Of a DNA stretch of 64,000 nt, positions 1 through 10,052 are shown one piece after another. The DNA is from a bacterium (GTDB lineage Bacteria > JAAXHH01): NCBI GenBank assembly GCA_965202605.1, contig OZ241838.1:1647817-1711816 (forward strand), in the 5' to 3' direction. The stretch's first letter is position 1; each line of letters begins with the position of its first letter. The notes below the pieces were generated by a model. It was not told the origin of the DNA. It did no database searches and was given only the letters and a program-made list of their open reading frames with translations. A program made the position numbers and the translations under genes.

Positions 1-619
1 GAAGTATGTTCTTGGGTTCAATGCAGTCGTAATCCCAACCATGAACCTCTCCAGGATCGGCCTTGACAACAAAGTCCGCTATCCATGCGCCGACACCACC
101 AAGTCCGACAATCGCCACACGCTCTTGAGCTACCAGACTCCTCCACTCCACTGCTTCTGGCAGTTGGTCACCAAGCACATCGAAAGTATAAGGGCGCGGA
201 GCCGATTCCCTACTCGTTGCGGATCGGCCAAGGAACAGCGCGTATATATGCTTGACGTAATTGTTTAATGCTTCCCAAGCATTCTCATATTCGCGGTCTT
301 TCAACTTGACCGACAGTACAAGACTGTAATGATTTCGCCCAATCACGCCGTTTGTCAACTCATTGCCAGAACCGTCGAACAATCTTCCGTCGGAGAGACC
401 TCGTATATTGGCCGCGTGTGAAGCGTTTTTCTGCCATTTGTGGTTTACTTCGAGTTCATCCGAGTTAGATGCGGTCCCTACCCAGATGTGACACTCGCCT
501 ACGACATTCGGTGCGAGAAAACATGGTACACCTAATGCACCTATTTCTATGTCTTGACGCTCGATTTTCCACCCGCGTCGCTCCGCTTCATGACGAGCAC
601 GTGACTCATGTTCTGACAC
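1..619 (-). CDS. ThiF/MoeB-family E1-like adenylyltransferase, partial (C-terminus runs off the left edge); the N-terminal ~150 aa carry a UBC/E2-like motif, so it may be an E2-E1 fusion (Cap2-like).
   Basis: Hand translation of the minus strand gives ...QERVAIVGLGGVGAWIADFVVKADPGEVHGWDYDCIEP, a Rossmann GxGxxG typical of ThiF/E1. About 140 aa upstream of that sits FLAPNVVGECHIWVG, resembling the UBC HPNV..G.IC(L) active-site signature. The most upstream in-frame start is GTG at 619, only 8 nt after the stop of the 97-aa ORF. It is absent from the ORF track because it is truncated by the window edge. Confidence 0.55.
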   Translation of the reverse strand, partial: MSEHESRARHEAERRGWKIERQDIEIGALGVPCFLAPNVVGECHIWVGTASNSDELEVNHKWQKNASHAANIRGLSDGRLFDGSGNELTNGVIGRNHYSLVLSVKLKDREYENAWEALNNYVKHIYALFLGRSATSRESAPRPYTFDVLGDQLPEAVEWRSLVAQERVAIVGLGGVGAWIADFVVKADPGEVHGWDYDCIEPKNIL

Positions 620-627
620 AGTTTTCC

Positions 628-921
628 CTAAGCGAGATACGAGTCGTCAATCTTGAACGACAGTTCATCACCCACAGCCAACGGTTTATCCGACGGATAG
701 AGAATCCCCTTTGTTCCGTCCTTAGCCTCCCAGTCGATGCCTGGAAGATTACCTGTCACACGTCTTTCCGGATCAAGTTTATTCCACTGTTCGACCACTT
801 GCGCGAAGCTGATGGTCGGCTTGTCCCACAGCACCGACCGAGCATTGATGTAAATGGTCAACTCCTTGACAATCCCCGTCGGTCCATTGGGTCCATCGCC
901 GTTTCCAGGTTCTTGTACCAA
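628..921 (-). CDS. Small hypothetical protein (97 aa), translationally coupled to the downstream E1-like gene; possibly a beta-grasp/ubiquitin-like or other partner of the E1.
   Basis: ORF with a TTG start preceded by AAGGAGG with a 9-nt spacer. Its stop lies 8 nt before the E1-like GTG. It has no C-terminal Gly-Gly; only a weak secondary-structure-like resemblance to ubiquitin-type folds. Confidence 0.45.
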   Translation of the reverse strand: MVQEPGNGDGPNGPTGIVKELTIYINARSVLWDKPTISFAQVVEQWNKLDPERRVTGNLPGIDWEAKDGTKGILYPSDKPLAVGDELSFKIDDSYLA

Positions 922-1450
922 TTTGGATTCCTCCTTGATGTCTAACTAAGTGTCTGTTTCGCTTTCCAGTGTACTGCACGTAGGGCAGAGAGCGACCCGG
1001 GTGACCAGTTATGTTGCTCAAGAAAGTTCGTCTTGCCCACCCAGAGCACGTCTCAACTCAATGAACCAACTGCCCCGCTTAGGTCAACACACTCCGTCCT
1101 GCGGGTGTCTGAACTAGATGGCCAACCTGTCGAATGGCGTACCTGATGATCCCGGCGCAAAAGGTCGTAATGCCCTTACCAGACACTTTTCGCTCCCGCA
1201 TCGCGCAATCAAGCAATGTAACACTTTGCGAGCAACTACGCAACTGTTTAGTACTGCAGCGGTACGTGGCATACGGTGTATCGCAGACGCGATCTGAGTA
1301 GAATCCAGCTCGCTGTGGTGTTATGGTCATGAGCACACCCGGGAAGCACAATCGCGACGAGATGTAGCCACGGCAAGTTAATTATTGACAAGACACCCAC
1401 AATCATACATATAATACTAAAAGGAATTATTTAAGTAAAAGTTATTTCTT

Positions 1451-1490
1451 CTATAAAAACGAACCCCCGAAGCTGCCACCTCGGGGGTTC
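1451..1490 (-). terminator. Rho-independent terminator-like hairpin, oriented for minus-strand transcripts.
   Basis: GC stem aacccccga / tcgggggtt with a 10-nt loop. The A-run (ataaaaac) on the plus side gives a U-run after the stem on the minus strand. Confidence 0.4.
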
Positions 1491-1533
1491 AGGGTCGGCG
1501 GTGATGAGTCGCCGCTAACGATGAGGTGTCATC

Positions 1534-1797
1534 ATGAGTAAAAATAACCAAACGTCTGATGAGTATCAAGATGAAAATGAACAACGCGAAGAATTAACTC
1601 GGAGGTTAAGGATGTATTTCTCAGACCAAAACTGGCTTCCAGTTTCAAGGTCGTGGTGGTGTATATTTATCTCGTACGATGCCGCCGACCGCGATATAGT
1701 GCTTGAGCTAGCTCGGAAATTCGATCTCCTGCCCAGACCAGACCGTGACACTCGCAACTTCGACTACGATTCATGGCAGGAAGGAGTGGAGGACTAA
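1534..1797 (+). CDS. Small acidic hypothetical ORF (87 aa) containing a TIR-like CIFISYDAADRDIVLELARKF segment; possibly a truncated remnant of a TIR-domain gene.
   Basis: GAGGTG-like RBS before the ATG. It lies in AT-rich DNA. The FISY..D motif resembles the first strand/helix of TIR domains, but the ORF ends about 25 aa later. Confidence 0.3.
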   Translation: MSKNNQTSDEYQDENEQREELTRRLRMYFSDQNWLPVSRSWWCIFISYDAADRDIVLELARKFDLLPRPDRDTRNFDYDSWQEGVED

Positions 1798-2039
1798 TTG
1801 ATAAGGGCTAGTCCGTTAGTACCGACACCTCACGCTCTTGGGTCCGGCGACGACCGTCTGAAGAATCTGATAAAATAATGAAACTCAAAAGATGTAGGTA
1901 ACTATGTGAATTCGCGGGAGAGGTGTAGTTAAGAAATCAATTGCTAATACTGAGTAAAGACAACATAAATGGCTTACATTGATATAGAAACGGCTCTTCG
2001 GTCCGTCATGCATACCCAGCATACAAACCTTTCGGTCAA

Positions 2040-2873
2040 TCAGCCCGACCTCTTCAGATCCACGAATTTCGCCGCCGGTCCCACCAGAAACAAAGCGTAG
2101 AGCGGCGCGTTCACGACTTCAAGCAACCGCAACGCCATCTCGGCCAGCGCCACCAAAAAGGCGACCCCGATCCGTCCGCCACGCGAGGAGACCGAGGTGG
2201 CGGGGTCCGTGACCATGAAGAAGGCCATGAGCTGATACATGGGTCCGGTGATAGGCGCGACTTCAGACAGGAAAGGCGTCCCGGTCATCAGAGACCGTAC
2301 GTAGGCAAGCGCGACAAAGGACACGGCGTAGGTGAAGGTAACGTGGAAGCGTTTCGCCCGCCAGAGGATGGCCGAACCCAGCACCCAGATCACGGCCATG
2401 GCCCAGAGATCGTTTCCCCACTGCTCGCTCAGGGCGGCCACGGTCCCGGGCGCCGCGAAGAGCACCACGCAGATACCCAGATTGGATGGATTCCACAGAT
2501 GGCGTCCCCGGTAGCGCAGGACGTATTTCGACATGATGGAAAGCAGGCTGGCGATGGCGAAGGGCCACAGGTAAAGCGACCTCAGCAGTATGCCGCAGCT
2601 GATCCCGGTGATGTACGCGCTGGCGGGATTGAGCCACCTCCCCGTCAACAGACGGCCCAGGGCCAGTTCCGCCACCAGGGCCGCGACGATCGCCGTAAAG
2701 AGCTGCGACAGGTCGTGGAGGAAACCCACGTACATCTGGCCGAAGACCAGGATCAGGGTGATCAGGCCGGAGGACAGGTACCGCGGGTCGATCTGGTATC
2801 TCGTCCCACCCGGCGGCCCCGGCGGCGGTCCCGGCGATGATTGAGCCGCCGCGGTCTTAGATTCGCTCATCAT
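2040..2873 (-). CDS. RnfD/NqrB-like polytopic membrane protein (UnbU-like), partner of the downstream FG-GAP/UnbV gene.
   Basis: Multi-TM protein with the FFMVTDPATS motif, like the RnfD/NqrB FFMATDP signature. Its ATG overlaps the stop of the upstream gene (ATGA). Confidence 0.75.
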   Translation of the reverse strand: MMSESKTAAAQSSPGPPPGPPGGTRYQIDPRYLSSGLITLILVFGQMYVGFLHDLSQLFTAIVAALVAELALGRLLTGRWLNPASAYITGISCGILLRSLYLWPFAIASLLSIMSKYVLRYRGRHLWNPSNLGICVVLFAAPGTVAALSEQWGNDLWAMAVIWVLGSAILWRAKRFHVTFTYAVSFVALAYVRSLMTGTPFLSEVAPITGPMYQLMAFFMVTDPATSVSSRGGRIGVAFLVALAEMALRLLEVVNAPLYALFLVGPAAKFVDLKRSG

Positions 2874-4639
2874 TTCTCCGGTTCCGTTACCACGTGCAGC
2901 CGGTTCAAATCAGGATCTTCCAGCGTCTGCACGATGCCGCTCGGCCAGCGGATTTCCGCGCGCTCGACCGCTTCGGCAAGCCCCAGCCCGAAATGCCGCC
3001 TGCGCTGGCTCTGGGCGGCGAATCCCGCCCCGGCCGTCACGACCTGGAGCTGTTGCCGGCCGTCCCAGAATATCCGTACCTCCGCGCCGATGGCGCTGGC
3101 GTTGCTGCGAGCGCCCCTCAGTTCGAAGGAAATCCACGCGTGCGCGCGCTCGACCTCGTTCCGGTACAGGATCAGGGGGCCGTCCTGGTTGGCCACGACC
3201 ACGTCCAGAACGCCCCGGTTGAACAGGTCGGCCAGGGCGACGCCCCTGCCGTCATACCGGTCGTTCACGCCGACGGATTCCGCCACGTCGTAGAAGCGCG
3301 CGGATCCGTCGTTCAGGTAGAGCCTGGACCGCTCGAAACCCGACAGACTCTGATCGCCCATGGGCGCCCAGTTCCGTACGTCCTGGAAGATGTTGTTGTT
3401 GCCCATGGCGACCCGCGACATTTCGTACCAGTAATCCTTTTCCGGGTCGGCGGACACAAATCCGTTGGCCACGAAAAGGTCCACGAAACCATCGTTGTTC
3501 AGGTCGCCGAACTGGGCGCCCCAGGCCCACCCCGCGTCGGCGATTTCCCCCTCGGCGATATTGATCATCCGGCCGTTCTCGGCGATCAGGTTGCGGCGGA
3601 GATTGTTGCCCTGGAAAAGATACCCGCGCTTCGAGATATTGGTTACGTAGACGTCCGAGCGGCCGTCATTGTACAGATCGCCGAAGGCCACGTTCATGCC
3701 GCTCTTGGAGGTCTCCTCCAGCGTGGCGCCGGCGAGCTGCTCGAACCCTTTCCCTTCGAGGTTGATGAAGAGGACCTCGGGGCCGTAGTCGTTGGCCAGG
3801 TAGAGATCGGGCCAGCCATCGCCGTTCAGGTCCGCCGCGCCGACGGACATGGTCCACCGCGTGCAGTCCGCCTCGTACTCCTCCGTGACCTCCTCGAAAC
3901 GCCCGCCGCCCCGGTTCAGGAAGAGGTAGTTGCGCCCGCCGTTGTTCGCGTACTCGAAACTCTCCTGCATGATGCGCGTCGTCGTAACCTGCCACAAATC
4001 ATGAACTTCCGAGAAATAACCGCCAACGTAGAGATCAATCAGGCCATCCCGGTCGACGTCCGTCCACACCGCGCTGTTGGCATTCATCCACCGGTCGAGG
4101 CCGGCGTCGGCGGTCACGTCCGTGAACACGGTGCCGCCCTGGTTTCTGAACAGGCGCTGCCGGCCCCACCGGTAGATGAACACGTCCTCGAAACCGTCGT
4201 TGTCGTAGTCCCCCCACACCGATCCCATGGATACGCCGCCGGGCCCGTTCACATCGGCCAGACCGATCTTTCCGGCAACCTCCACGAAGCTTCCGTCACC
4301 CGAGTTCCGGTACAACGCGTTCGGCGTACCCTTCCGGCTGCTGGTCACGTACAGGTCCTGCCACCCGTCGTTGTCGTAGTCCACGACCGAGACGGACGCC
4401 CCCAGCGCCGAGATGTGGGGCATGATGGGGTCGAGCTCCGGGTCGAGCTCCGGCCTGGCATGGACGAAGTCTATGCCGGCTTCCGCGGTCGCGTCGGTCA
4501 GATAGAATCCGTACTGTCCTGCTTTTGGCTCGGCCCGGTCGCGCGAAAGCCACCAGGAGAAGAAGAAGGGCGTGGCAAGCAGTATGACGAATAGCGTGGT
4601 TACGACGGGACGGCGCTTAGTAGACGAGGCTGGTGACAT
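2870..4639 (-). CDS. FG-GAP/VCBS repeat protein with a C-terminal ASPIC/UnbV domain (CRTAC1 family), with an N-terminal signal/anchor.
   Basis: Repeated DxDxDGxxD calcium-binding FG-GAP motifs (DYDNDGWQDLYV, DVDRDGLIDLYV, DLNGDGWPDLYL, DLNNDGFVDLFV) and an UnbV-like C-terminus. Confidence 0.85.
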   Translation of the reverse strand: MSPASSTKRRPVVTTLFVILLATPFFFSWWLSRDRAEPKAGQYGFYLTDATAEAGIDFVHARPELDPELDPIMPHISALGASVSVVDYDNDGWQDLYVTSSRKGTPNALYRNSGDGSFVEVAGKIGLADVNGPGGVSMGSVWGDYDNDGFEDVFIYRWGRQRLFRNQGGTVFTDVTADAGLDRWMNANSAVWTDVDRDGLIDLYVGGYFSEVHDLWQVTTTRIMQESFEYANNGGRNYLFLNRGGGRFEEVTEEYEADCTRWTMSVGAADLNGDGWPDLYLANDYGPEVLFINLEGKGFEQLAGATLEETSKSGMNVAFGDLYNDGRSDVYVTNISKRGYLFQGNNLRRNLIAENGRMINIAEGEIADAGWAWGAQFGDLNNDGFVDLFVANGFVSADPEKDYWYEMSRVAMGNNNIFQDVRNWAPMGDQSLSGFERSRLYLNDGSARFYDVAESVGVNDRYDGRGVALADLFNRGVLDVVVANQDGPLILYRNEVERAHAWISFELRGARSNASAIGAEVRIFWDGRQQLQVVTAGAGFAAQSQRRRHFGLGLAEAVERAEIRWPSGIVQTLEDPDLNRLHVVTEPEK

Positions 4640-4817
4640 GGCCTGTAGGGATCTGAACAGAACCGACGGGCCGGACAGATCCGGTTCGTCCGATCAGACC
4701 GGTCAGTCCGGTCAGTCCGGAATATCCAGCGGAAGGACAAAGGGTATGGCACGGGTATCCCGTGTGCTCGAAATGCGATTTCAAGGTAGAAGGCAAAACA
4801 AGGACTGTCAAGATGGA

Positions 4818-4847
4818 TTGACAAGGGGGCCGCAAGCGGTATAGAAT
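4818..4847 (+). promoter_or_regulatory. Sigma70-like promoter (TTGACA, 18 nt, TAGAAT) upstream of the substrate-binding protein gene.
   Basis: Exact TTGACA at 4818-4823 and TAGAAT at 4842-4847, about 65 nt before the ATG at 4914. Confidence 0.5.
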
Positions 4848-4913
4848 CAACCTTGCCTCCACCGACGGCCACTTCTGCGATCCACGGGATTCCATCAACG
4901 ATCTGGAGTTTAT

Positions 4914-5711
4914 ATGACGACCCACCGAATTCGTACCTTCCAGGCGGTACTGCTGTTCCTGTGCGCGAGTACCGCTTCAGCGGATTTACACGCGCAGACC
5001 TCCCTCCTGGACCGTATACTGGAACGGGGCGAAATCCGAATCGGCACCACGGGCGACTACAAGCCTTTCACGTACCTGAACCCCGAGACGGGCGGCTACG
5101 AAGGCATGGACATCGACGCGGCCCATATGCTGGGAGAAGCGCTTGGCGTACGCGTCCGGTTCGTGCCCACGACCTGGAGCAACCTGTCCGACGATGCCCT
5201 GAACGACCGCTTCGACCTGGCCATGGGCGGCATTACCCGGACGCTCAAACGGCAGCGCATCCTGGCGCTCACCGATCCTTATGTCACCATAGGGAAATCG
5301 CCGCTCATCAGGAAGTCGGACAAGGACCGCTTCAGGAGTCTGCAGGACATCGACGCGCCAGGAGTACGGATCGGCGCGAATTTCGGAGGCACGAACGAGG
5401 CCTTTGTCCGAGCCAGCATCCAGCAGGCCACGATCGTCATGTTCGAGAACAACCTCGACGTACAGCCCGCCGTGGCGTCGGGGGAGGTGGACGTGATGTT
5501 CACCGACAACGTCGAGGCGGTAATCTACGCGAGACAGAATCCCGCGCTCTACGCCGTGAATCCGGACGAGCCGCTGACCCGTGAAGATATCGGCTACATG
5601 ACGGTCCGAAACGATCAGCCCTTCATCAACTGGCTGAACCTGTGGCTGTACCAGCTGCGGCAGAAGGGAACGCTTGATGAACTGAGGGGCAAATGGATCG
5701 GGGCGTTCTGA
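4914..5711 (+). CDS. Periplasmic amino-acid ABC transporter substrate-binding protein (family 3 SBP, PheC/cyclohexadienyl dehydratase-like).
   Basis: Signal peptide plus family-3 SBP fold motifs (GTTGDYKPFTY, DLAMGGITRT). Confidence 0.8.
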   Translation: MTTHRIRTFQAVLLFLCASTASADLHAQTSLLDRILERGEIRIGTTGDYKPFTYLNPETGGYEGMDIDAAHMLGEALGVRVRFVPTTWSNLSDDALNDRFDLAMGGITRTLKRQRILALTDPYVTIGKSPLIRKSDKDRFRSLQDIDAPGVRIGANFGGTNEAFVRASIQQATIVMFENNLDVQPAVASGEVDVMFTDNVEAVIYARQNPALYAVNPDEPLTREDIGYMTVRNDQPFINWLNLWLYQLRQKGTLDELRGKWIGAF

Positions 5712-5809
5712 TACAGGCGTTCTGATATAATTGTATTGCGAAGACACCCGCCCTTCCCTATCTTAGGTGCGGCCGCAACCAATACGGAATCTTGTAAAGG
5801 AGCGAGTCT

Positions 5810-7594
5810 TTGGCCGGTGCCCCGGACTATAGCGACGATGTGTTTTTCGACGACGTCGACCTGGACGCCCACAGCGCCAGGACGGTAGATTCCGAAGCCA
5901 TCGAGTTCTTCCCCACCGACTACCGCATCGGCCGGACCAAGTACATCTTCGTCACCGGCGGCGTCATGTCCGGCGTGGGCAAGGGCGTCTTCAGCGCCTC
6001 CCTCGGACACCTGCTCAAGCATTACGGATTCACGGTTTCCCAGATCAAGATCGACGGCTACCTGAACCAGGACGCCGGCACCATCAACCCCTATCGCCAC
6101 GGGGAGGTGTTCGTGCTCGAGGACGGTACCGAGTGCGACATGGACCTGGGCACCTACGAACGTTTCCTCGACGACAATCTGAACCGGAACAACTACATCA
6201 CCTCGGGCAGGGTGTACCGGATCATCCTCGACAAGGAACGCCGCGGCGAGTACCTGGGACGCGACGTGCAGGTCGTGCCCCACGTGACCGGCGAGATCAA
6301 GAACCTGATCCGGACCAAGGCGCATGAAGGGCCTTACGACATCCTGGTCGTCGAAATCGGCGGCACCGTCGGGGATATCGAGAACATCCATTTCATCGAA
6401 GCCGCCCGCGAGATGCTCTACGACGAGGGACGGGACAATGTCATGTCGGCCCACGTCACGCAGGTACCCTATAACGAGTCCGCGGGGGAACTGAAGACCA
6501 AACCCACGCAGCACAGCGTCAAGGCACTCCTGCAACTGGGCATTCAGCCCGATATCGTGGTATGCCGTTCGGCCATACCGCTGAACAAGAGCGTCCGCCA
6601 GAAGATCAGCCTCTTCTGCAACATCGCGGAGGATCGCGTGGTCAGCAGCCCGGATACGGATTCCATCTACCGCGTGCCCACGCTGCTCGACCGCCAGCAG
6701 ACGGTTCAGATCGTCGCCGAGAAGCTCAACGTAAATCTCCCGCAGCGTACCGATCAGCGGCCCCAGATTTTCGACATCTACCTCAAATACCTGTCCAGAA
6801 GCCACCCGGAAGTCCGCATTGCCATCACGGGAAAGTATACGGCCCTGCACGATTCATACGTGAGTATCCTGAACGCCCTGGACCACAGCGAGGTCAGCGT
6901 GGGCGTGGATATCGCCACGGAGTGGATCGATACGACGGATATTTCGGCGGACGAGCCGCTGGACGCCGGAATTCTGGACGGCATATCCGGCATCATCGTG
7001 CCTGGCGGCTTCGGCGAGCGGGGCGCCGAGGGGAAGATCCGGTTCATACAGTATGCCAGAGAGAACGGTCTGCCGTTCCTTGGCTTGTGCTATGGGTTCC
7101 AGCTGGCCGTCGTGGAGTTCGCGCGAAACCAGTGCGGACTGCTGAACGCGGCCCATGCCGAGTTCGACGCGGAGGCCGAATCGCCGGTCATCTACCTGCT
7201 GCCCGGCCAGCGCAAACTGGCTGAAATGGGGGGCACGATGCGGCTGGGCGGACACGAGGTGAAGCTGAAAGACGGCACGGAAGCCCACCGCTGCTACGGA
7301 TCGGATTCGGCCATGGAACGATTCCGCCACCGGTACGAGTTCAACAACCAGTACAGGGAACTCATCGAGCACAAGGGCATGGTGTTCTCCGGCATGACAC
7401 CCGACGAGCAGATTATGCAGATCCTGGAAATCCCCACGCATCCCTTCTTCGTAGGAACCCAGTTCCACCCCGAGTTGACCAGCCGTCCATACAGGCCCCA
7501 CCCCTTGTTCAGGGGACTGGTACAGGCAGCGCTGGATTACGTGGAATCAGAGGAAAACCGGCAGATGGCCTTGCAGGCCGGACAGGTGGAATAA
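5810..7594 (+). CDS. pyrG: CTP synthase.
   Basis: KYIFVTGGVMSGVGKG P-loop region, the glutamine amidotransferase domain (GLCYGFQL) and full-length similarity. AAGGAG with a 7-nt spacer precedes the TTG start. It carries an unusual ~40-aa acidic N-terminal extension. Confidence 0.95.
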   Translation: MAGAPDYSDDVFFDDVDLDAHSARTVDSEAIEFFPTDYRIGRTKYIFVTGGVMSGVGKGVFSASLGHLLKHYGFTVSQIKIDGYLNQDAGTINPYRHGEVFVLEDGTECDMDLGTYERFLDDNLNRNNYITSGRVYRIILDKERRGEYLGRDVQVVPHVTGEIKNLIRTKAHEGPYDILVVEIGGTVGDIENIHFIEAAREMLYDEGRDNVMSAHVTQVPYNESAGELKTKPTQHSVKALLQLGIQPDIVVCRSAIPLNKSVRQKISLFCNIAEDRVVSSPDTDSIYRVPTLLDRQQTVQIVAEKLNVNLPQRTDQRPQIFDIYLKYLSRSHPEVRIAITGKYTALHDSYVSILNALDHSEVSVGVDIATEWIDTTDISADEPLDAGILDGISGIIVPGGFGERGAEGKIRFIQYARENGLPFLGLCYGFQLAVVEFARNQCGLLNAAHAEFDAEAESPVIYLLPGQRKLAEMGGTMRLGGHEVKLKDGTEAHRCYGSDSAMERFRHRYEFNNQYRELIEHKGMVFSGMTPDEQIMQILEIPTHPFFVGTQFHPELTSRPYRPHPLFRGLVQAALDYVESEENRQMALQAGQVE

Positions 7595-7650
7595 AAGGCT
7601 ATGAGGCGCCCGACCGGCACGGCCAGGCACTGCCGGTACCGGGAACGTGC

Positions 7651-7896
7651 TCAGTTGCCCTGCTTCGCCAGCCTGGACTTGATGCGGTCGGCGGTCCGCC
7701 GGTGCATCACGCCGCGCTTGACGGCTTTATCCAACCTGGAATGGGCCTGGCTCAGGAGCCCGGACGCCGCGTCGGCGTCCGTATTTCCGCGCAGGCGTTT
7801 GATGGCGGTTCGGAGGGCGGATTTTACCGTGGCGTTGCGCCGCTGACGGGTGCTTTCCTGACGTAGACGCTTTTTGGATGATACGAGAGTCGGCAA
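7651..7896 (-). CDS. rpsT: 30S ribosomal protein S20.
   Basis: SSKKRLRQESTRQRRNATVKSALRTAIKRL is the classic S20 N-terminus. TTG start with an AAGGGAG RBS. Confidence 0.9.
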   Translation of the reverse strand: MPTLVSSKKRLRQESTRQRRNATVKSALRTAIKRLRGNTDADAASGLLSQAHSRLDKAVKRGVMHRRTADRIKSRLAKQGN

Positions 7897-8092
7897 ATTT
7901 TGCTCCCTTTAAGCTCCAGATTGCTGCAACACCGCATGGCGCGCCGGCCAATTGCGGTCCGTTTGACGGTTTACTCAAAACCAGCATCATATTACCTGGC
8001 GGGTTCCCGAATGTCAAGGTTAAATTGACCGCCAGGGCCTGATCGCCCCTGCCGGTTGTCCACCCGGAGAAGAGAGAGCAGGCGAGCCATCC

Positions 8093-9922
8093 ATGGCTGT
8101 CCAGCAAACGGAAATAGAAGAAAAGCTCAAGGCGCTGCCGGGCAAGCCGGGCGTGTACCTGATGAAAGACGCCCGGTCACGCATCATCTACGTGGGCAAG
8201 ACCCGGGCGCTGCGCCAGCGTATCCGCTCGTACTTTCAGAAAAACCGGCGTACGGAGCCGAAGGCGGTCGCCCTGGCCAGCCGGATCCGCGACTTCGACT
8301 ACGTGGCCACCGAATCGGAAGCCGACGCGCTCCTCCTCGAAGATCATCTCATCAAGGAACACAGGCCCCGGTACAACGTGATGCTGCGCGACGACAAATC
8401 CTTTCCCTTCATCATGTTGACCAACGAGGCCTTCCCCCGGGTCGTGGTCACACGCAACGTCAGGCAGGACGGGGCCCGGTACTTCGGACCTTACACCAAC
8501 GTGAAGTCCATGCGGAGGACCATCGACCTGGTCCGTAAAGTGTTCCCGTTGCGCACCTGCCCGAGCGCAGGGGCCTGGCCGTCCATGGACCGGCCCTGCC
8601 TCGACTACTACATAGACCGCTGCCCCGGGCCGTGCAAAGGCCATATCGACGAGGAAGGCTACGGCGAGATCATCGACCAGGTATGCCAGTTTCTCTCCGG
8701 CAGGACGAAGGATCTGCTGAAGCAACTGAAGGAACGCATGGCGCAGGCCTCGGAGCATCTGCAGTTCGAGCTGGCGGGACGCATACGCGACCAGATCGTC
8801 GCCATCGAGAACACGACGGTCCGCCAGCGGGCCTTTACCAGCAGGGAAGTGGACCGTGACATCATCGGACTCGCACGAAACGGAAACGATGTGTGCGGGG
8901 CGGTACTCCAGGTAAGGGAGGGCAAGCTGCTGGGCAAGGAGCACTTCTTCCTGACGGCGCCCGAAGAGGCCACGGAACCGGAGACGCTGGGAGCCTTTCT
9001 GACCCAGTACTACCTCGCCGCGCAACTGTGGCCCGACGAGATCCTCCTCACCGGCGAACCGGAGGGCATCGAAGCGTTCAGGGAATGGACGGCCCGGAAG
9101 CGCGGTTCAAAAGTGAACGTCGCCGTGCCCCGGCGGGGTGACAAGGCGGCCATGGTCCGGCTGGCCGTCCAGAACGCGGAACTGCAGTTGAATACCCACG
9201 CGCTGAAACGGGCCGAAGCCAGGGTTCGCCGCAGCATGCCCGCCTCGGTCGCCTCGCTGCAGGAAGTCCTCGGGCTCGCCGTGCCGCCGAGACGCATCGA
9301 AACATTCGACATATCCAACATACAGGGCTCGGACCCGGTGGCCTCCATGGTCTGCTTCGTGGACGGACGGCCCCGCAAGACGGACTACCGGAAGTTCAAG
9401 GTCAAAGACGTGATCGGCCCCAATGATTTCGCCATGATGCAGGAAGTGGTCGGCCGGCGCTACCGTCGCCTGCTCGACGAGAGCAAGCTCCTCCCCGATC
9501 TCGTGCTCATCGACGGAGGCAAGGGCCAGCTGTCCAGCGTCCGGCAGGTCCTGAACGAGCTGGGCCTTGTCGACCTGCCCGTCATCGGCCTGGCGAAGCG
9601 ACTGGAGGAGGTATTTCGTCCGGGACAGTCCGAACCGATCGTCATCCCGCGGTCTTCCCCGGCCCTGAAAATGCTGATGCAGGCCAGGGACGAAGCCCAC
9701 CGGTTCGCCGTCACCTTTCACCGGCAGCGACGGGGAAGCCGCATGATCCGGTCCGAACTGGACAACATCCCCGGCGTCGGGCCGAAGCGCAAGCAACAGT
9801 TGATCATGGCGCTCGGATCGGTAGACAGGATCAGAAAATGCACCGAGGAGGAACTGACCGGGGTAAAGGGGCTGGGCAAAGAAGCGGCGCGGAAGGTGTA
9901 TCGATACTTCCATCCGGAGTGA
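8093..9922 (+). CDS. uvrC: Excinuclease ABC subunit C.
   Basis: GIY-YIG N-terminus (GVYLMKD...IIYVGKT), a UvrBC domain and a C-terminal HhH. Confidence 0.95.
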   Translation: MAVQQTEIEEKLKALPGKPGVYLMKDARSRIIYVGKTRALRQRIRSYFQKNRRTEPKAVALASRIRDFDYVATESEADALLLEDHLIKEHRPRYNVMLRDDKSFPFIMLTNEAFPRVVVTRNVRQDGARYFGPYTNVKSMRRTIDLVRKVFPLRTCPSAGAWPSMDRPCLDYYIDRCPGPCKGHIDEEGYGEIIDQVCQFLSGRTKDLLKQLKERMAQASEHLQFELAGRIRDQIVAIENTTVRQRAFTSREVDRDIIGLARNGNDVCGAVLQVREGKLLGKEHFFLTAPEEATEPETLGAFLTQYYLAAQLWPDEILLTGEPEGIEAFREWTARKRGSKVNVAVPRRGDKAAMVRLAVQNAELQLNTHALKRAEARVRRSMPASVASLQEVLGLAVPPRRIETFDISNIQGSDPVASMVCFVDGRPRKTDYRKFKVKDVIGPNDFAMMQEVVGRRYRRLLDESKLLPDLVLIDGGKGQLSSVRQVLNELGLVDLPVIGLAKRLEEVFRPGQSEPIVIPRSSPALKMLMQARDEAHRFAVTFHRQRRGSRMIRSELDNIPGVGPKRKQQLIMALGSVDRIRKCTEEELTGVKGLGKEAARKVYRYFHPE

Positions 9923-9990
9923 CTGCGTAGCGTTTGTATGAATAAACGGGGTAACGCCCGCCGATTCGCTTCTAACGATCTCCCGTTGCG

Positions 9991-10052
9991 GAGAATCGGA
10001 TTGCGCGGGAGGAGAATTCAGATTCGCGGCAGTAGAATCAGATTGCGCGGGG
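9991..10052. repeat. Three direct ~19-bp repeats (gagaatcRgattgcgcggg) upstream of the CMD-family gene; a possible regulator-binding array.
   Basis: Repeat units at 9991-10009, 10013-10030 and 10034-10052. Confidence 0.5.

What the first reader, a model, noticed from the sequence alone, without database searches (positions are those of the whole stretch)
1..921. Partial E1-like (ThiF) gene with an N-terminal UBC/E2-like motif, preceded by a tightly coupled 97-aa ORF: possible ubiquitin-like conjugation (Cap2/Bil/Bub-type) defence module cut by the window edge
Hand translation of the minus strand shows a Rossmann VAIVGLGGVGAWIADFVVKAD typical of E1/ThiF enzymes, about 170 aa into the protein. 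Upstream of it lies FLAPNVVGECHIWVG, which resembles the UBC HPN..G.IC active-site loop, suggesting an E2-E1 fusion like CBASS Cap2. Its GTG start sits 8 nt after the stop of a 97-aa ORF that has a strong AAGGAGG RBS. The 97-aa ORF might be a ubiquitin-like, target or adaptor protein, but it has no C-terminal GG. The segment has lower GC than the chromosome and the gene is absent from the ORF track because it runs off the edge.
Basis: partly seen in the sequence, partly recalled or inferred. Interest (0 to 1): 0.65.

Follow-up and report, generated by a model that had tools for sequence, protein, structure and literature searches.

The report
Edge-cut Type II Bub ubiquitin-like operon
The window edge cuts through a diverged but recognisable bacterial ubiquitin-like conjugation operon (Type II "Bub": a small ubiquitin-like protein followed by a fused E2-E1 enzyme); this kind of system was described in 2024, and the copy here sits on a laterally transferred, low-GC defence islet.

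Summary
On the minus strand a 97-aa ORF (921..628, TTG start, AAGGAGG 8 nt upstream) is followed after 8 nt by a GTG-started ORF (619..2, 206 codons) that runs off the window and reaches a ThiF Rossmann motif at residues 168-188.

The pair is the first two genes of a Type II Bub (6E.2/DUF6527) operon: bubA (one beta-grasp domain) and bubBD (E2-E1 fusion). All 26 complete related loci also carry the third gene, bubE (DUF6527 serine protease). One of these loci (L005) is syntenic with the window at about 90% nucleotide identity.

The residues invariant across the whole superfamily are His68 and Ser103 (with Lys105 in most members), which align to canonical Ser106/Lys108. Arg207 and Tyr328, which lie beyond the edge, align to canonical Arg219/Tyr342. 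This implies oxyester (Ser/Tyr) chemistry, not thioester chemistry.

The missing C-terminal Gly is normal for this type: two canonical Type II BubA proteins end in ...TDKS.

This is a diverged subfamily spread across many phyla. I rate it a new member of a known kind, of moderate interest.

The parts
628..921 (-). bubA-like gene: a 97-aa ubiquitin-like protein with a disordered N-terminal ~20 aa, one beta-grasp domain and the C-terminus ...IDDSYLA
   Evidence: ORF. Pfam Multi_ubiq PF14452 scores 21.1 bits (below the gathering score of 24.5) here and 25.9 bits (above it) in the L001 orthologue. The AF2 model has pLDDT 78.6 with bb-a-bbb topology. All Foldseek hits are beta-grasp folds, including the E. 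coli ZDHYS365 multi-ubiquitin protein 9cd2_A (probability 1.00, TMq 0.52). 79 homologous clusters at 59-94% identity. dN/dS 0.14-0.21.
930..936 (-). Shine-Dalgarno AAGGAGG, 8 nt upstream of the TTG start of bubA
   Evidence: Read directly. GAGGAGGAATCCAAC is conserved in L001 and L002.
2..619 (-). 5' part (codons 1-206 of 391) of bubBD, the E2-E1 fusion gene. It starts with GTG at 619 and continues beyond the window edge.
   Evidence: Translation. ThiF PF00899 matches residues 165-205. The full-length protein is reconstructed with P0014. Orthologues of 375-399 aa occur in 29 loci. The best PDB sequence hit is Citrobacter BubCD. The best NCBIfam hit is PRK06153 at 1e-34, below its cut-off.
215..619 (-). 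E2-like (BubB-type) domain, residues ~1-135. Putative catalytic Ser103 is codon 313..311, Lys105 is 307..305 and His68 is 418..416. The clade-specific Cys43 is 493..491.
   Evidence: AF2 secondary-structure order a1-b-b-b-b-(b-b)-a2, with pLDDT 72-91 over residues 20-110. The top Foldseek PDB hit is Citrobacter BubB 9eae_C, but E=0.59, and other E2s (Cdc34, Rad6, Atg3) are in the top 25. hhalign against the N-terminal domain of canonical PRK06153 gives probability 92.5%, E=5e-7, and 99.7% against an intermediate clade. His68 and Ser103 are invariant in alignment A5, and Ser103/Lys105 align to Ser106/Lys108 of P0139.
56..118 (-). Rossmann nucleotide-binding motif VAIVGLGGVGAWIADFVVKAD (residues 168-188) of the E1 adenylation domain
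   Evidence: G172, G174, G177 and D182 are invariant in A1 and A5.
946..1186 (-). Decayed remnant (pseudogene) of the accessory gene 'g139', which precedes bubA in most close relatives. It has a premature TAA at 1081..1079, a 129-nt and a 45-nt deletion, and 1-nt indels.
   Evidence: DNA alignment with L001 and L002. Intact 137-153-aa orthologues are shown. The gene is absent or truncated in the other Latescibacterota loci L005, L006 and L020.
1187..1290 (-). Conserved non-coding leader upstream of g139 (probable promoter/operator region of the cassette). This is the limit of homology to cassettes in other phyla.
   Evidence: Conserved blocks in alignment A4. blastn homology to 17 loci ends at about 1156-1168. 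No function was tested.
1460..1491 (-). Strong hairpin plus T-run (terminator-like) that insulates the cassette from upstream minus-strand transcription. A promoter-like site follows at 1439..1411.
   Evidence: 14-bp stem, 8 GC pairs. No Rfam family matches in 600..2200. This is a consensus match only.

Best explanation

The genes:
- bubA encodes a 97-aa single beta-grasp ubiquitin-like protein.
- bubBD encodes a 391-aa fusion of an N-terminal E2-like domain and a C-terminal ThiF/E1 adenylation domain. Only codons 1-206 lie inside the window.
- The third gene, bubE (a DUF6527 Zn-binding Ser/His protease), lies just beyond the edge, as it does in the syntenic relative L005.

Inferred mechanism, by homology to the published Bub systems:
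1. The E1 domain (Rossmann motif, Arg207) adenylates the C-terminal Ala97 of BubA.
2. The crossover-loop Tyr328 takes BubA as an oxyester.
3. BubA is passed to Ser103 of the E2 domain, which is assisted by His68 and Lys105, and from there to a target amine.
4. BubE reverses or edits the conjugates.

The biological role is most likely anti-phage or stress defence. The cassette is a low-GC, laterally transferred islet. In several genomes, including the syntenic relative, it travels with an EcoRI-like methylase plus a GmrSD/HNH nuclease.

Shown here: gene structure, folds, homology, conserved residues, operon architecture, purifying selection and lateral transfer.
Inferred: the chemistry, the targets and the defence role.
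For: Architecture. Ubl, then a 375-399-aa E2-E1 protein, then DUF6527 occur in that order and are tightly packed in every complete locus of 32 examined. DUF6527 Pfam scores are 63.4 and 58 bits. This is the published Type II Bub layout (bioRxiv 10.1101/2024.11.21.623953).

Ubl. AF2 gives a beta-grasp fold, and Foldseek hits the Type II BubA crystal structure 9cd2_A. Multi_ubiq Pfam hits support this.

E2-E1.
- A profile search finds 3680 relatives. Bona fide PRK06153 members (P0204, P0229, P0139, all above the NCBIfam cut-offs) align collinearly from residue ~21 to the end.
- hhalign of the N-terminal domains alone gives 92.5% probability, E=5e-7.
- His68, Ser103, Arg207 and the G-x-G-x-x-G motif are invariant.
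- P0139 carries Ser106, Lys108, Arg219 and Tyr342, which is the residue numbering mutated in E. coli BubBD in the paper.
- The crossover loop has a Tyr and no Cys.
- The top PDB sequence hit is Citrobacter BubCD. The top PDB fold hit for the N-terminal domain is Citrobacter BubB.

BubE. The CPCGC...C zinc site and the PSIG Ser / CRSHY His dyad are conserved at the spacing of Citrobacter S92/C99/H102.

C-terminus. This clade ends in S[YH]L[AS], and two canonical Type II BubA proteins end in ...TDKS.

Selection and context.
- dN/dS is 0.14-0.41.
- Neighbours are integrases, HsdM, an EcoRI-like methylase and GmrSD/HNH.
- Cassette GC is 0.44-0.585 while flanks are 0.38-0.74.
Against: - Only 206 of 391 codons, and no bubE, are inside the window. 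The rest rests on P0014, on a contig that also holds a 97-aa protein identical to the window's, and on the syntenic L005.
- The protein scores far below the PRK06153 cut-offs (119 bits against 340), and those models align only its E1 half.
- Lys105 is Met or Gln in four members.
- PADLOC has no Bub model, and its E1-E2 (Cap2) models hit only the Rossmann region.
- The upstream accessory gene is a pseudogene here, so regulation, or even activity, of this copy is uncertain.
- No experiment links any Bub operon to phage defence yet. The paper itself infers this from context.
Confidence: 0.85

Rival explanations
1. CBASS/Pycsar-type Cap2 module. An E2-E1 fusion with catalytic cysteines would conjugate a CD-NTase (not a free Ubl) and be regulated by a Cap3 JAB peptidase.
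For: It is an E2-E1 fusion in the same N-to-C order. PADLOC E1-E2 (Cap2) models hit at E=1e-6 and weaker. Cys43 is conserved within this clade.
Against: The PADLOC hits cover only the Rossmann region (residues 164-280) at no more than 26 bits. No CD-NTase, effector or JAB gene occurs in L001, L002, L003 or L005. The protein is ~390 aa against ~570-600 aa for Cap2. There is no Cys in the crossover loop. Cys43 is Gly in canonical relatives and Ile in L019. The partner genes are a beta-grasp Ubl and DUF6527.
Confidence: 0.02
2. Sulfur-carrier or cofactor pathway. A MoeB/ThiF-type adenylyltransferase would activate a MoaD/ThiS-like beta-grasp protein for thiocarboxylate formation.
For: The pair is a ThiF-family Rossmann domain plus a small beta-grasp protein. 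There are weak NCBIfam hits to ThiF, MoeB and UbaA (E=1e-8 to 1e-2).
Against: Those hits are 15-35 bits against cut-offs of 150-450. The small protein lacks a C-terminal GG. There are no thiamine, molybdopterin, cysteine-desulfurase or rhodanese neighbours. The extra E2-like domain and the DUF6527 protease have no place in sulfur transfer. The islet is mobile, low in GC and flanked by restriction-modification genes.
Confidence: 0.02
3. A decaying, non-functional relic of a transferred islet. The operon has lost its upstream accessory or regulatory gene and is on its way to pseudogenisation, so it does nothing in this genome.
For: g139 is clearly a pseudogene here and is absent or truncated in L005, L006 and L020. 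Some relatives (L021, L029) have broken E2-E1 ORFs. dN/dS of bubBD against the closest relative L005 is the highest measured, 0.41.
Against: bubA and the visible 206 codons of bubBD are intact and keep all invariant residues. P0014 shows an intact C-terminal half. bubA, bubBD and bubE are all intact in the syntenic L005, although it shares the loss of g139. dN/dS stays well below 1 in all comparisons. The divergent clades L022-L032 never had g139, so it is not essential to the triad.
Confidence: 0.1

Closest known systems
Type II Bub operon (6E.2/DUF6527; BubA, BubBD, BubE), for example E. coli ZDHYS365 (Ye, Gong, Chambers, Corbett, bioRxiv 10.1101/2024.11.21.623953; BubA structure 9cd2)
   Same: The gene order Ubl, E2-E1 fusion, DUF6527 is the same. 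BubBD is of similar length (~390 aa). The invariant residues match: E2 His/Ser-x-Lys, E1 Arg and crossover-loop Tyr. There is no JAB peptidase. BubE keeps the C4 zinc site and the Ser/His dyad. The Ubl ends in a small non-Gly residue. The operon sits in a mobile or defence context.
   Different: Identity to canonical BubBD is only 18-25%. The protein is below the NCBIfam PRK06153 cut-offs, and its N-terminal domain is invisible to those HMMs. The Ubl has one beta-grasp domain (97 aa) against three (232-249 aa) in the E. coli, Runella and Pseudomonas examples. The genes are separated by 8 nt, whereas bubA and bubBD overlap by 26 nt in the canonical examples. No CapH/CapP or CapW regulator is present. 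Instead there is an unrelated 139-aa gene, decayed in this window. Cys43 is clade-specific. No taxon name from this clade appears in the paper's Table S1.
Type I Bub operon (6E.1; BubAB, BubCD, BubE), Citrobacter sp. RHBSTW-00271 (PDB 9ea4, 9ea5, 9eae)
   Same: The E1 clade is the same: BubCD is the best PDB sequence hit. The E2 type is the same: BubB is the top fold hit. Both have a DUF6527 protease, and both are proposed to work by Ser/Tyr oxyester chemistry.
   Different: Type I fuses the Ubl to the E2 and a JAB peptidase to the E1. Its Ubl ends in Gly after JAB cleavage, and its E2 uses Ser+His+Asp. Here the E2 is fused to the E1, there is no JAB, and the Ubl is made with a free Ala C-terminus.
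CBASS Cap2/Cap3
   Same: Both have an E2-E1 fusion polypeptide in a bacterial defence context.
   Different: Cap2 uses Cys thioesters, its substrate is the CD-NTase C-terminus, it is partnered with a JAB peptidase (Cap3), and it is ~200 aa longer. None of these features is present here.
Bil (bacterial ISG15-like) operons
   Same: Both have a free Ubl conjugated by E1/E2 enzymes, and Bil has a shown anti-phage role.
   Different: Bil has separate E1 (IAD-AAD-CYS), E2 and JAB proteins with catalytic cysteines, and no DUF6527.
MoeB/ThiF with MoaD/ThiS sulfur-carrier pairs
   Same: Both pair a ThiF-fold adenylation domain with a beta-grasp partner.
   Different: Those pairs have no E2 domain and no protease, the carrier ends in GG, and they sit among biosynthetic genes.

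Membership tests
Type II Bub (6E.2/DUF6527) operon | A stand-alone ubiquitin-like (beta-grasp, Multi_ubiq) protein encoded immediately upstream of the E1-containing gene | tested here: met
   The 97-aa ORF ends 8 nt before bubBD. Multi_ubiq scores 21.1 bits here and 25.9 bits (above the gathering score) in the L001 orthologue. AF2 gives a beta-grasp fold, and Foldseek hits the Type II BubA structure 9cd2_A with probability 1.00.
Type II Bub (6E.2/DUF6527) operon | A BubBD protein with an N-terminal E2-like domain fused to a C-terminal ThiF/E1 adenylation domain (~390 aa) | tested here: met
   The reconstructed length is 391 aa. The profile aligns collinearly with PRK06153 members from residue ~21 to the end. 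hhalign of the N-terminal domains alone gives 92.5% probability, E=5e-7. Structural support is weak: BubB is the top hit only at E=0.59.
Type II Bub (6E.2/DUF6527) operon | An invariant E2 serine accompanied by conserved Lys and His, with no catalytic Cys | tested here: met
   Ser103 and His68 are invariant across this clade, the intermediates and canonical proteins. Lys105 is present in the window protein and most members, and is Met or Gln in 4. Ser103/Lys105 align to Ser106/Lys108 of P0139.
Type II Bub (6E.2/DUF6527) operon | An E1 adenylation Arg and an invariant crossover-loop Tyr, with no crossover-loop Cys | tested here: met
   Arg207 and Tyr328 are present in P0014, which completes the window protein, and in all orthologues. 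Cys occurs only at positions 33, 43, 199, 273 and 363. Both residues lie just outside the window, so this is tested on the completing sequence and not on window DNA.
Type II Bub (6E.2/DUF6527) operon | A DUF6527 (BubE) gene directly downstream, with the C4 zinc site and the Ser/His dyad | tested here: met
   Present in every locus that extends far enough, including the syntenic L005 (7163..7552, 58 bits). The window's own copy lies beyond base 1 and could not be read. Look-ups for its contig failed.
Type II Bub (6E.2/DUF6527) operon | No JAB/JAMM peptidase in the operon | tested here: met
   The precomputed Pfam lists for L001-L003 show no JAB. The L005 neighbours are DUF6527, EcoRI_methylase and GmrSD_N/HNH.
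Type II Bub (6E.2/DUF6527) operon | ATP-dependent Ubl conjugation through Tyr and Ser oxyester intermediates | not testable with these tools
   This is a biochemical property. It is inferred only from residue conservation.
NCBIfam PRK06153 (canonical BubBD equivalogs) | A whole-protein score above the curated cut-off (340-601 bits) | tested here: not met
   The best score is 119 bits against 340, and only the E1 half is aligned. The protein is therefore a relative outside these equivalog models, not a member of them.
CBASS Cap2/Cap3 | Adjacent CD-NTase, effector and Cap3 JAB genes, and catalytic Cys residues in the E1 and E2 domains | tested here: not met
   No such neighbours are present. PADLOC E1-E2 hits score no more than 26 bits and cover only the Rossmann region. 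There is no conserved catalytic Cys.
Bil operon | Separate E1 (IAD-AAD-CYS), E2 and JAB genes | tested here: not met
   The E2 is fused to a single-adenylation-domain E1, and there is no JAB.
MoeB/ThiF sulfur-carrier system | A carrier protein ending in Gly-Gly, cofactor-biosynthesis neighbours, and model scores above the cut-offs | tested here: not met
   The C-terminus is ...SYLA. ThiF, MoeB and UbaA models score 15-35 bits against cut-offs of 150-450. The neighbours are restriction-modification and integrase genes.

The most novel reading that the evidence does not exclude
This is a distinct third Bub subtype, not just a diverged Type II.

- It is a minimal cassette with a single beta-grasp Ubl and an Ala or Ser C-terminus.
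- It has its own uncharacterised 139-aa Cys/His-rich accessory protein, which could be a regulator, sensor or substrate adaptor and is dispensable in some lineages.
- It has a clade-specific conserved Cys43 in the E2 domain, which could add a thioester or redox step that canonical Bub lacks.
- It is being exchanged right now between at least six phyla of one host-associated (sponge/coral) community, together with a methylase/GmrSD-HNH pair.
Probability: 0.12. Interest if true: 0.6.

Novelty: new member of a known kind. Interest (0 to 1): 0.35.

Why it matters
Bub operons are the most recently characterised bacterial relatives of ubiquitination. They are the only ones proposed to work without catalytic cysteines, and their targets and biological role are still unknown.

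This window adds a compact, strongly diverged lineage found in uncultured phyla (Latescibacterota, Acidobacteriota, Gemmatimonadota, Poribacteria, Dadabacteria, Dehalococcoidia and others). No taxon name from these phyla appears in the published catalogue, which is based on cultured isolates.

The invariant His, Ser-x-Lys, Arg and Tyr survive at 18-25% identity. That is independent comparative support for the proposed oxyester mechanism.

The 75-86% protein identity across phyla, together with a constant cassette GC, is a clean example of recent lateral spread of a defence-type islet within a microbial community.

For annotation, the case shows that current models (NCBIfam PRK06153, PADLOC) miss this subfamily.

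Tried and rejected
- Contig look-ups for P0014 and P0116, intended to read the DNA left of the window, found nothing on record. The syntenic L005 was used as a proxy.
- PDB sequence and profile searches with the 97-aa protein gave nothing useful.
- The g139 accessory protein had no Pfam, NCBIfam, PADLOC or PHROG hit and no meaningful PDB hit. My impression of a ribbon-helix-helix N-terminus is untested.
- There is no tRNA or tmRNA in 1..10000 and no Rfam family in 600..2200, so no attachment site or riboregulator was found.
- PADLOC has no Bub model. Its Cap2 hits were rejected as Rossmann-only.
- The TK (thymidine kinase) Pfam hit, E=0.14, was ignored as noise.
- The PaaA-like (RiPP E1-like) reading was considered because of the 5ff5 hit at E=0.083. 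It was rejected on operon content.
- The third homologue search was deliberately not spent on g139, since the result could not change the verdict.
Full report
1. THE OBSERVATION

- A 97-aa ORF spans 921..628. It starts with TTG at 921..919, and AAGGAGG at 936..930 lies 8 nt upstream.
- Its TAG stop (630..628) is followed by 8 nt and then by GTG at 619..617.
- That GTG opens a stop-free frame of 206 codons that leaves the window at base 2. This is why the mechanical ORF list omits it.
- The Rossmann string VAIVGLGGVGAWIADFVVKAD is residues 168-188. The string FLAPNVVGECHIWVG is residues 34-48.
- GC is 0.45-0.54 over the first ~2.2 kb and 0.60-0.68 beyond.

Both ORFs are genuine genes.
- The partial protein has 32 homologous clusters and the small one has 79.
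- Twenty-nine species-representative genomes carry the pair.
- dN/dS against five orthologues is 0.14-0.21 for the small gene and 0.18-0.41 for the partial gene.
- A protein identical to the 97-aa product (P0116) and a 300-aa start-miscalled copy of the partial gene (P0014) lie together on a public 3.97-Mb contig. Joining P0014 to the window fragment gives a 391-aa protein.

2. WHAT IT IS

Domain hits on the window proteins are modest.
- The 97-aa protein hits Multi_ubiq (PF14452) at 21 bits.
- The partial protein hits ThiF at 25 bits.

Related loci give the context.
- In L001 and L002 the same two genes are followed, with no gap, by a 131-aa DUF6527 protein (PF20137, 63 bits). They are preceded by an unannotated 139-153-aa gene.
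- Across 32 loci, every complete one has the order Ubl, 375-399-aa E1-containing protein, DUF6527.
- This is the published architecture of Type II Bub operons, formerly 6E.2/DUF6527: BubA (Ubl), BubBD (E2-E1 fusion) and BubE (DUF6527 serine protease), with no JAB peptidase (bioRxiv 10.1101/2024.11.21.623953 and 10.1101/2024.11.21.623966).

3. THE UBL

With a 28-sequence alignment, AlphaFold2 gives a model of pLDDT 78.6. The first ~20 residues are disordered, and the rest has the beta-beta-alpha-beta-beta-beta order of a beta-grasp. All Foldseek hits are beta-grasp proteins. Rank 4 is 9cd2_A, the E. coli ZDHYS365 multi-ubiquitin domain protein, which is the reference Type II BubA (probability 1.00, TMq 0.52).

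- In this clade the C-terminus is invariantly S-[Y/H]-L-[A/S].
- Two canonical Type II BubA proteins on Runella and Pseudomonas plasmids end in ...TDKS.
- A small non-Gly terminal residue is therefore normal for Type II. The conserved terminal Gly in the paper refers to Type I BubAB after JAB cleavage.

4. THE E2-E1 FUSION

E1 half.
- The best PDB sequence match is Citrobacter BubCD.
- The best NCBIfam match is PRK06153 (1e-34), far below its cut-off and covering only residues 165-374.

N-terminal ~135 residues. The AF2 model (mean pLDDT 64, but 72-91 over residues 20-110) shows alpha1, a four-stranded meander, a beta-hairpin ending at residue 103, and a long helix 114-130. This order is UBC-like. 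Foldseek finds nothing significant. The first hit is Citrobacter BubB (9eae_C, E=0.59, TM 0.48 on the target), and Cdc34, Rad6, Atg3 and a Leishmania E2 are in the top 25. This is suggestive only.

The decisive evidence is from sequence profiles.
- A profile of the family searched against 1.84 billion representatives found 3680 relatives. Many ~390-400-aa proteins align from residue ~20 to the end.
- Three of these (P0204, P0229, P0139) score above the curated PRK06153 cut-offs.
- In a joint alignment His68, Gly85, Ser103 and the adenylation Arg are invariant, and Lys105 is conserved in most.
- P0139 has Ser106, Lys108, Arg219 and Tyr342 at those columns. These are the same residue numbers mutated in E. 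coli BubBD (S106A, R219A, Y342F).
- hhalign restricted to the N-terminal domains gives 92.5% probability (E=5e-7) against canonical proteins and 99.7% against an intermediate clade. It pairs His68 with the canonical His and S-I-K with S-x-K.

It is the beta2-beta3 hairpin. Its Cys43 is conserved in this clade and the intermediates, but is Ile in L019 and Gly in all canonical proteins. The crossover loop has the invariant Tyr (Tyr328) and no Cys.

5. BubE

BubE lies outside the window and was read in relatives. The CPCGC...C cysteines, the Ser of PSIG and the His of CRSHY are invariant. Their spacing is that of Citrobacter S92/C99/H102.

6. MECHANISM (INFERRED)

1. The E1 domain adenylates Ala97 of BubA.
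2. BubA is transferred to Tyr328 as an oxyester.
3. It is transferred to Ser103 of the E2 domain, probably in trans within a dimer, assisted by His68 and Lys105.
4. It is conjugated to targets.
5. BubE deconjugates or edits.

The folds, homology and residue conservation are shown here. The chemistry, the targets and the role are carried over from the published Type I/II work and from context.

7. CONTEXT AND EVOLUTION

The syntenic relative L005.
- L005 is a Candidatus Latescibacterota MAG. It matches the window at 90% nucleotide identity over 1-1916 and 88.8% over 2055-6000.
- It therefore shows what lies left of the window: the rest of bubBD, then bubE, then an EcoRI-like methylase (434 bits), then a GmrSD_N/HNH protein.
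- The same methylase/nuclease pair follows the cassette at 75-85% identity in Bryobacterales, Rhodothermales and two other Latescibacterota loci.
- L001 is flanked by integrases and HsdM.

Lateral transfer.
- The close clade is 67-86% identical at the protein level across Alpha- and Gammaproteobacteria, Latescibacterota, Acidobacteriota, Gemmatimonadota and Rhodothermales. More distant clades (30-50%) occur in Poribacteria, Dadabacteria, Dehalococcoidia and others.
- Cassette GC stays at 0.44-0.585 while flanks range from 0.38 to 0.74.
- Many MAG names point to sponge or coral metagenomes. This reading of the names rests on my own knowledge. The CAR/COS bins appear to belong to the study PMC8163846, which reports enrichment and lateral transfer of defence genes among sponge symbionts.

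The upstream accessory gene g139.
- It has invariant Cys105/Cys126/Cys129/His100 and no database match.
- In the window it is a pseudogene, with a 129-nt and a 45-nt deletion, a TAA at 1081..1079 and 1-nt indels.
- It is missing or truncated in the other Latescibacterota loci.
- The divergent clades lack it entirely, so the triad does not depend on it.

8. COMPARISON AND NOVELTY

The locus meets every sequence-testable defining feature of Type II Bub. It fails only the curated PRK06153 equivalog thresholds, which makes it a diverged subfamily.

It differs from the characterised examples in several ways:
- a single-domain Ubl ending in Ala;
- 18-25% identity of BubBD to canonical proteins;
- no CapH/CapP or CapW regulator;
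- its own accessory gene;
- a clade-specific Cys43.

The published catalogue (Table S1) is built from IMG isolate genomes. It contains none of the phylum names seen here, though it has some 'unclassified' rows.

I rate it a new member of a known kind. Interest is moderate (0.35), for three reasons:
- the family and its mechanism are already published;
- the lineage, its host range and its cross-phylum mobility are new information;
- the conservation pattern independently supports the Ser/Tyr mechanism.

9. LIMITS

- Only 53% of bubBD and none of bubE lie in the window.
- The structural support for the E2 fold is weak.
- Two fold libraries were unavailable.
- Nothing here tests activity or a defence role.

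Noticed in passing
window 946-1186 (minus strand); intact copies at L001:9185-9604 and L002:9002-9463: A 139-153-aa accessory gene precedes bubA in most close relatives. It has invariant Cys105/Cys126/Cys129/His100 and the motif IIRYAIRQVGHLVQTPAG, and it has no Pfam, NCBIfam, PADLOC, PHROG or PDB match. In the window it is a pseudogene (two in-frame deletions, a premature TAA at 1081..1079, and indels). It is also lost or truncated in the three other Latescibacterota loci.
   Followed up: partly
L004-L032 (29 genome loci): The cassette is 67-86% identical at the protein level across unrelated phyla. It keeps 0.44-0.585 GC while the flanks range from 0.38 to 0.74. Many of the host MAGs have names typical of sponge or coral symbiont studies (Poribacteria, Dadabacteria, Latescibacterota, CAR/COS/SB bins). 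This looks like recent lateral spread within one kind of community.
   Followed up: partly
L005:7654-9885, L002:11358-13459, L006:7501-9788, L008:4600-6749, L020:7632-9700: An EcoRI-like adenine methylase and a GmrSD_N/HNH nuclease (75-85% identical between phyla) sit directly downstream of bubE in five loci, including the relative syntenic with the window. The unit that moves may be a composite Bub plus restriction-modification-like islet.
   Followed up: partly
L005:6001-7200 (residues ~108-120 of BubBD): The closest relative has an 8-aa tandem insertion (HEYEREYEREYE against REYE in the window) only five residues after the putative catalytic Ser-x-Lys. This loop tolerates repeat expansion.
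   Followed up: no
window 491-493 (codon Cys43); alignment A5: Cys43 is conserved in this clade and in an intermediate clade of BubBD-like proteins. It is Gly in canonical PRK06153 proteins and Ile in L019. Its position relative to Ser103 in three dimensions was not examined.
   Followed up: partly
L021:2987-4268 and L029:5995-7128: In two relatives the E2-E1 gene is split or fused out of frame, so some copies of the cassette are decaying.
   Followed up: no
window 1460-1491 (minus strand), 1411-1439: A strong 14-bp GC-rich hairpin with a T-run is followed by a promoter-like site, in the AT-rich (0.45 GC) spacer between the cassette and the chromosome. No Rfam family matches there, and there is no tRNA nearby.
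   Followed up: partly
window 1534-1797 (plus strand): An 87-aa acidic ORF faces away from the cassette. It is conserved (83% aa) only in the syntenic L005 and has no Pfam or PHROG match.
   Followed up: partly
L033:2328-3026 and L034:2277-3026: Two canonical Type II BubA proteins annotated as 'multiubiquitin domain-containing protein' on plasmids both end in ...TDKS. Their genes overlap bubBD by 26 nt. The Pseudomonas copy has the HTH plus ImmA/IrrE (CapH/CapP-like) pair upstream.
   Followed up: partly
window 2040-4639 (minus strand): The chromosomal neighbours are an NQR2/RnfD/RnfE-family membrane protein (277 aa) and an FG-GAP/ASPIC-UnbV repeat protein (589 aa). Both are shared with L005 and are unrelated to the cassette.
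   Followed up: partly
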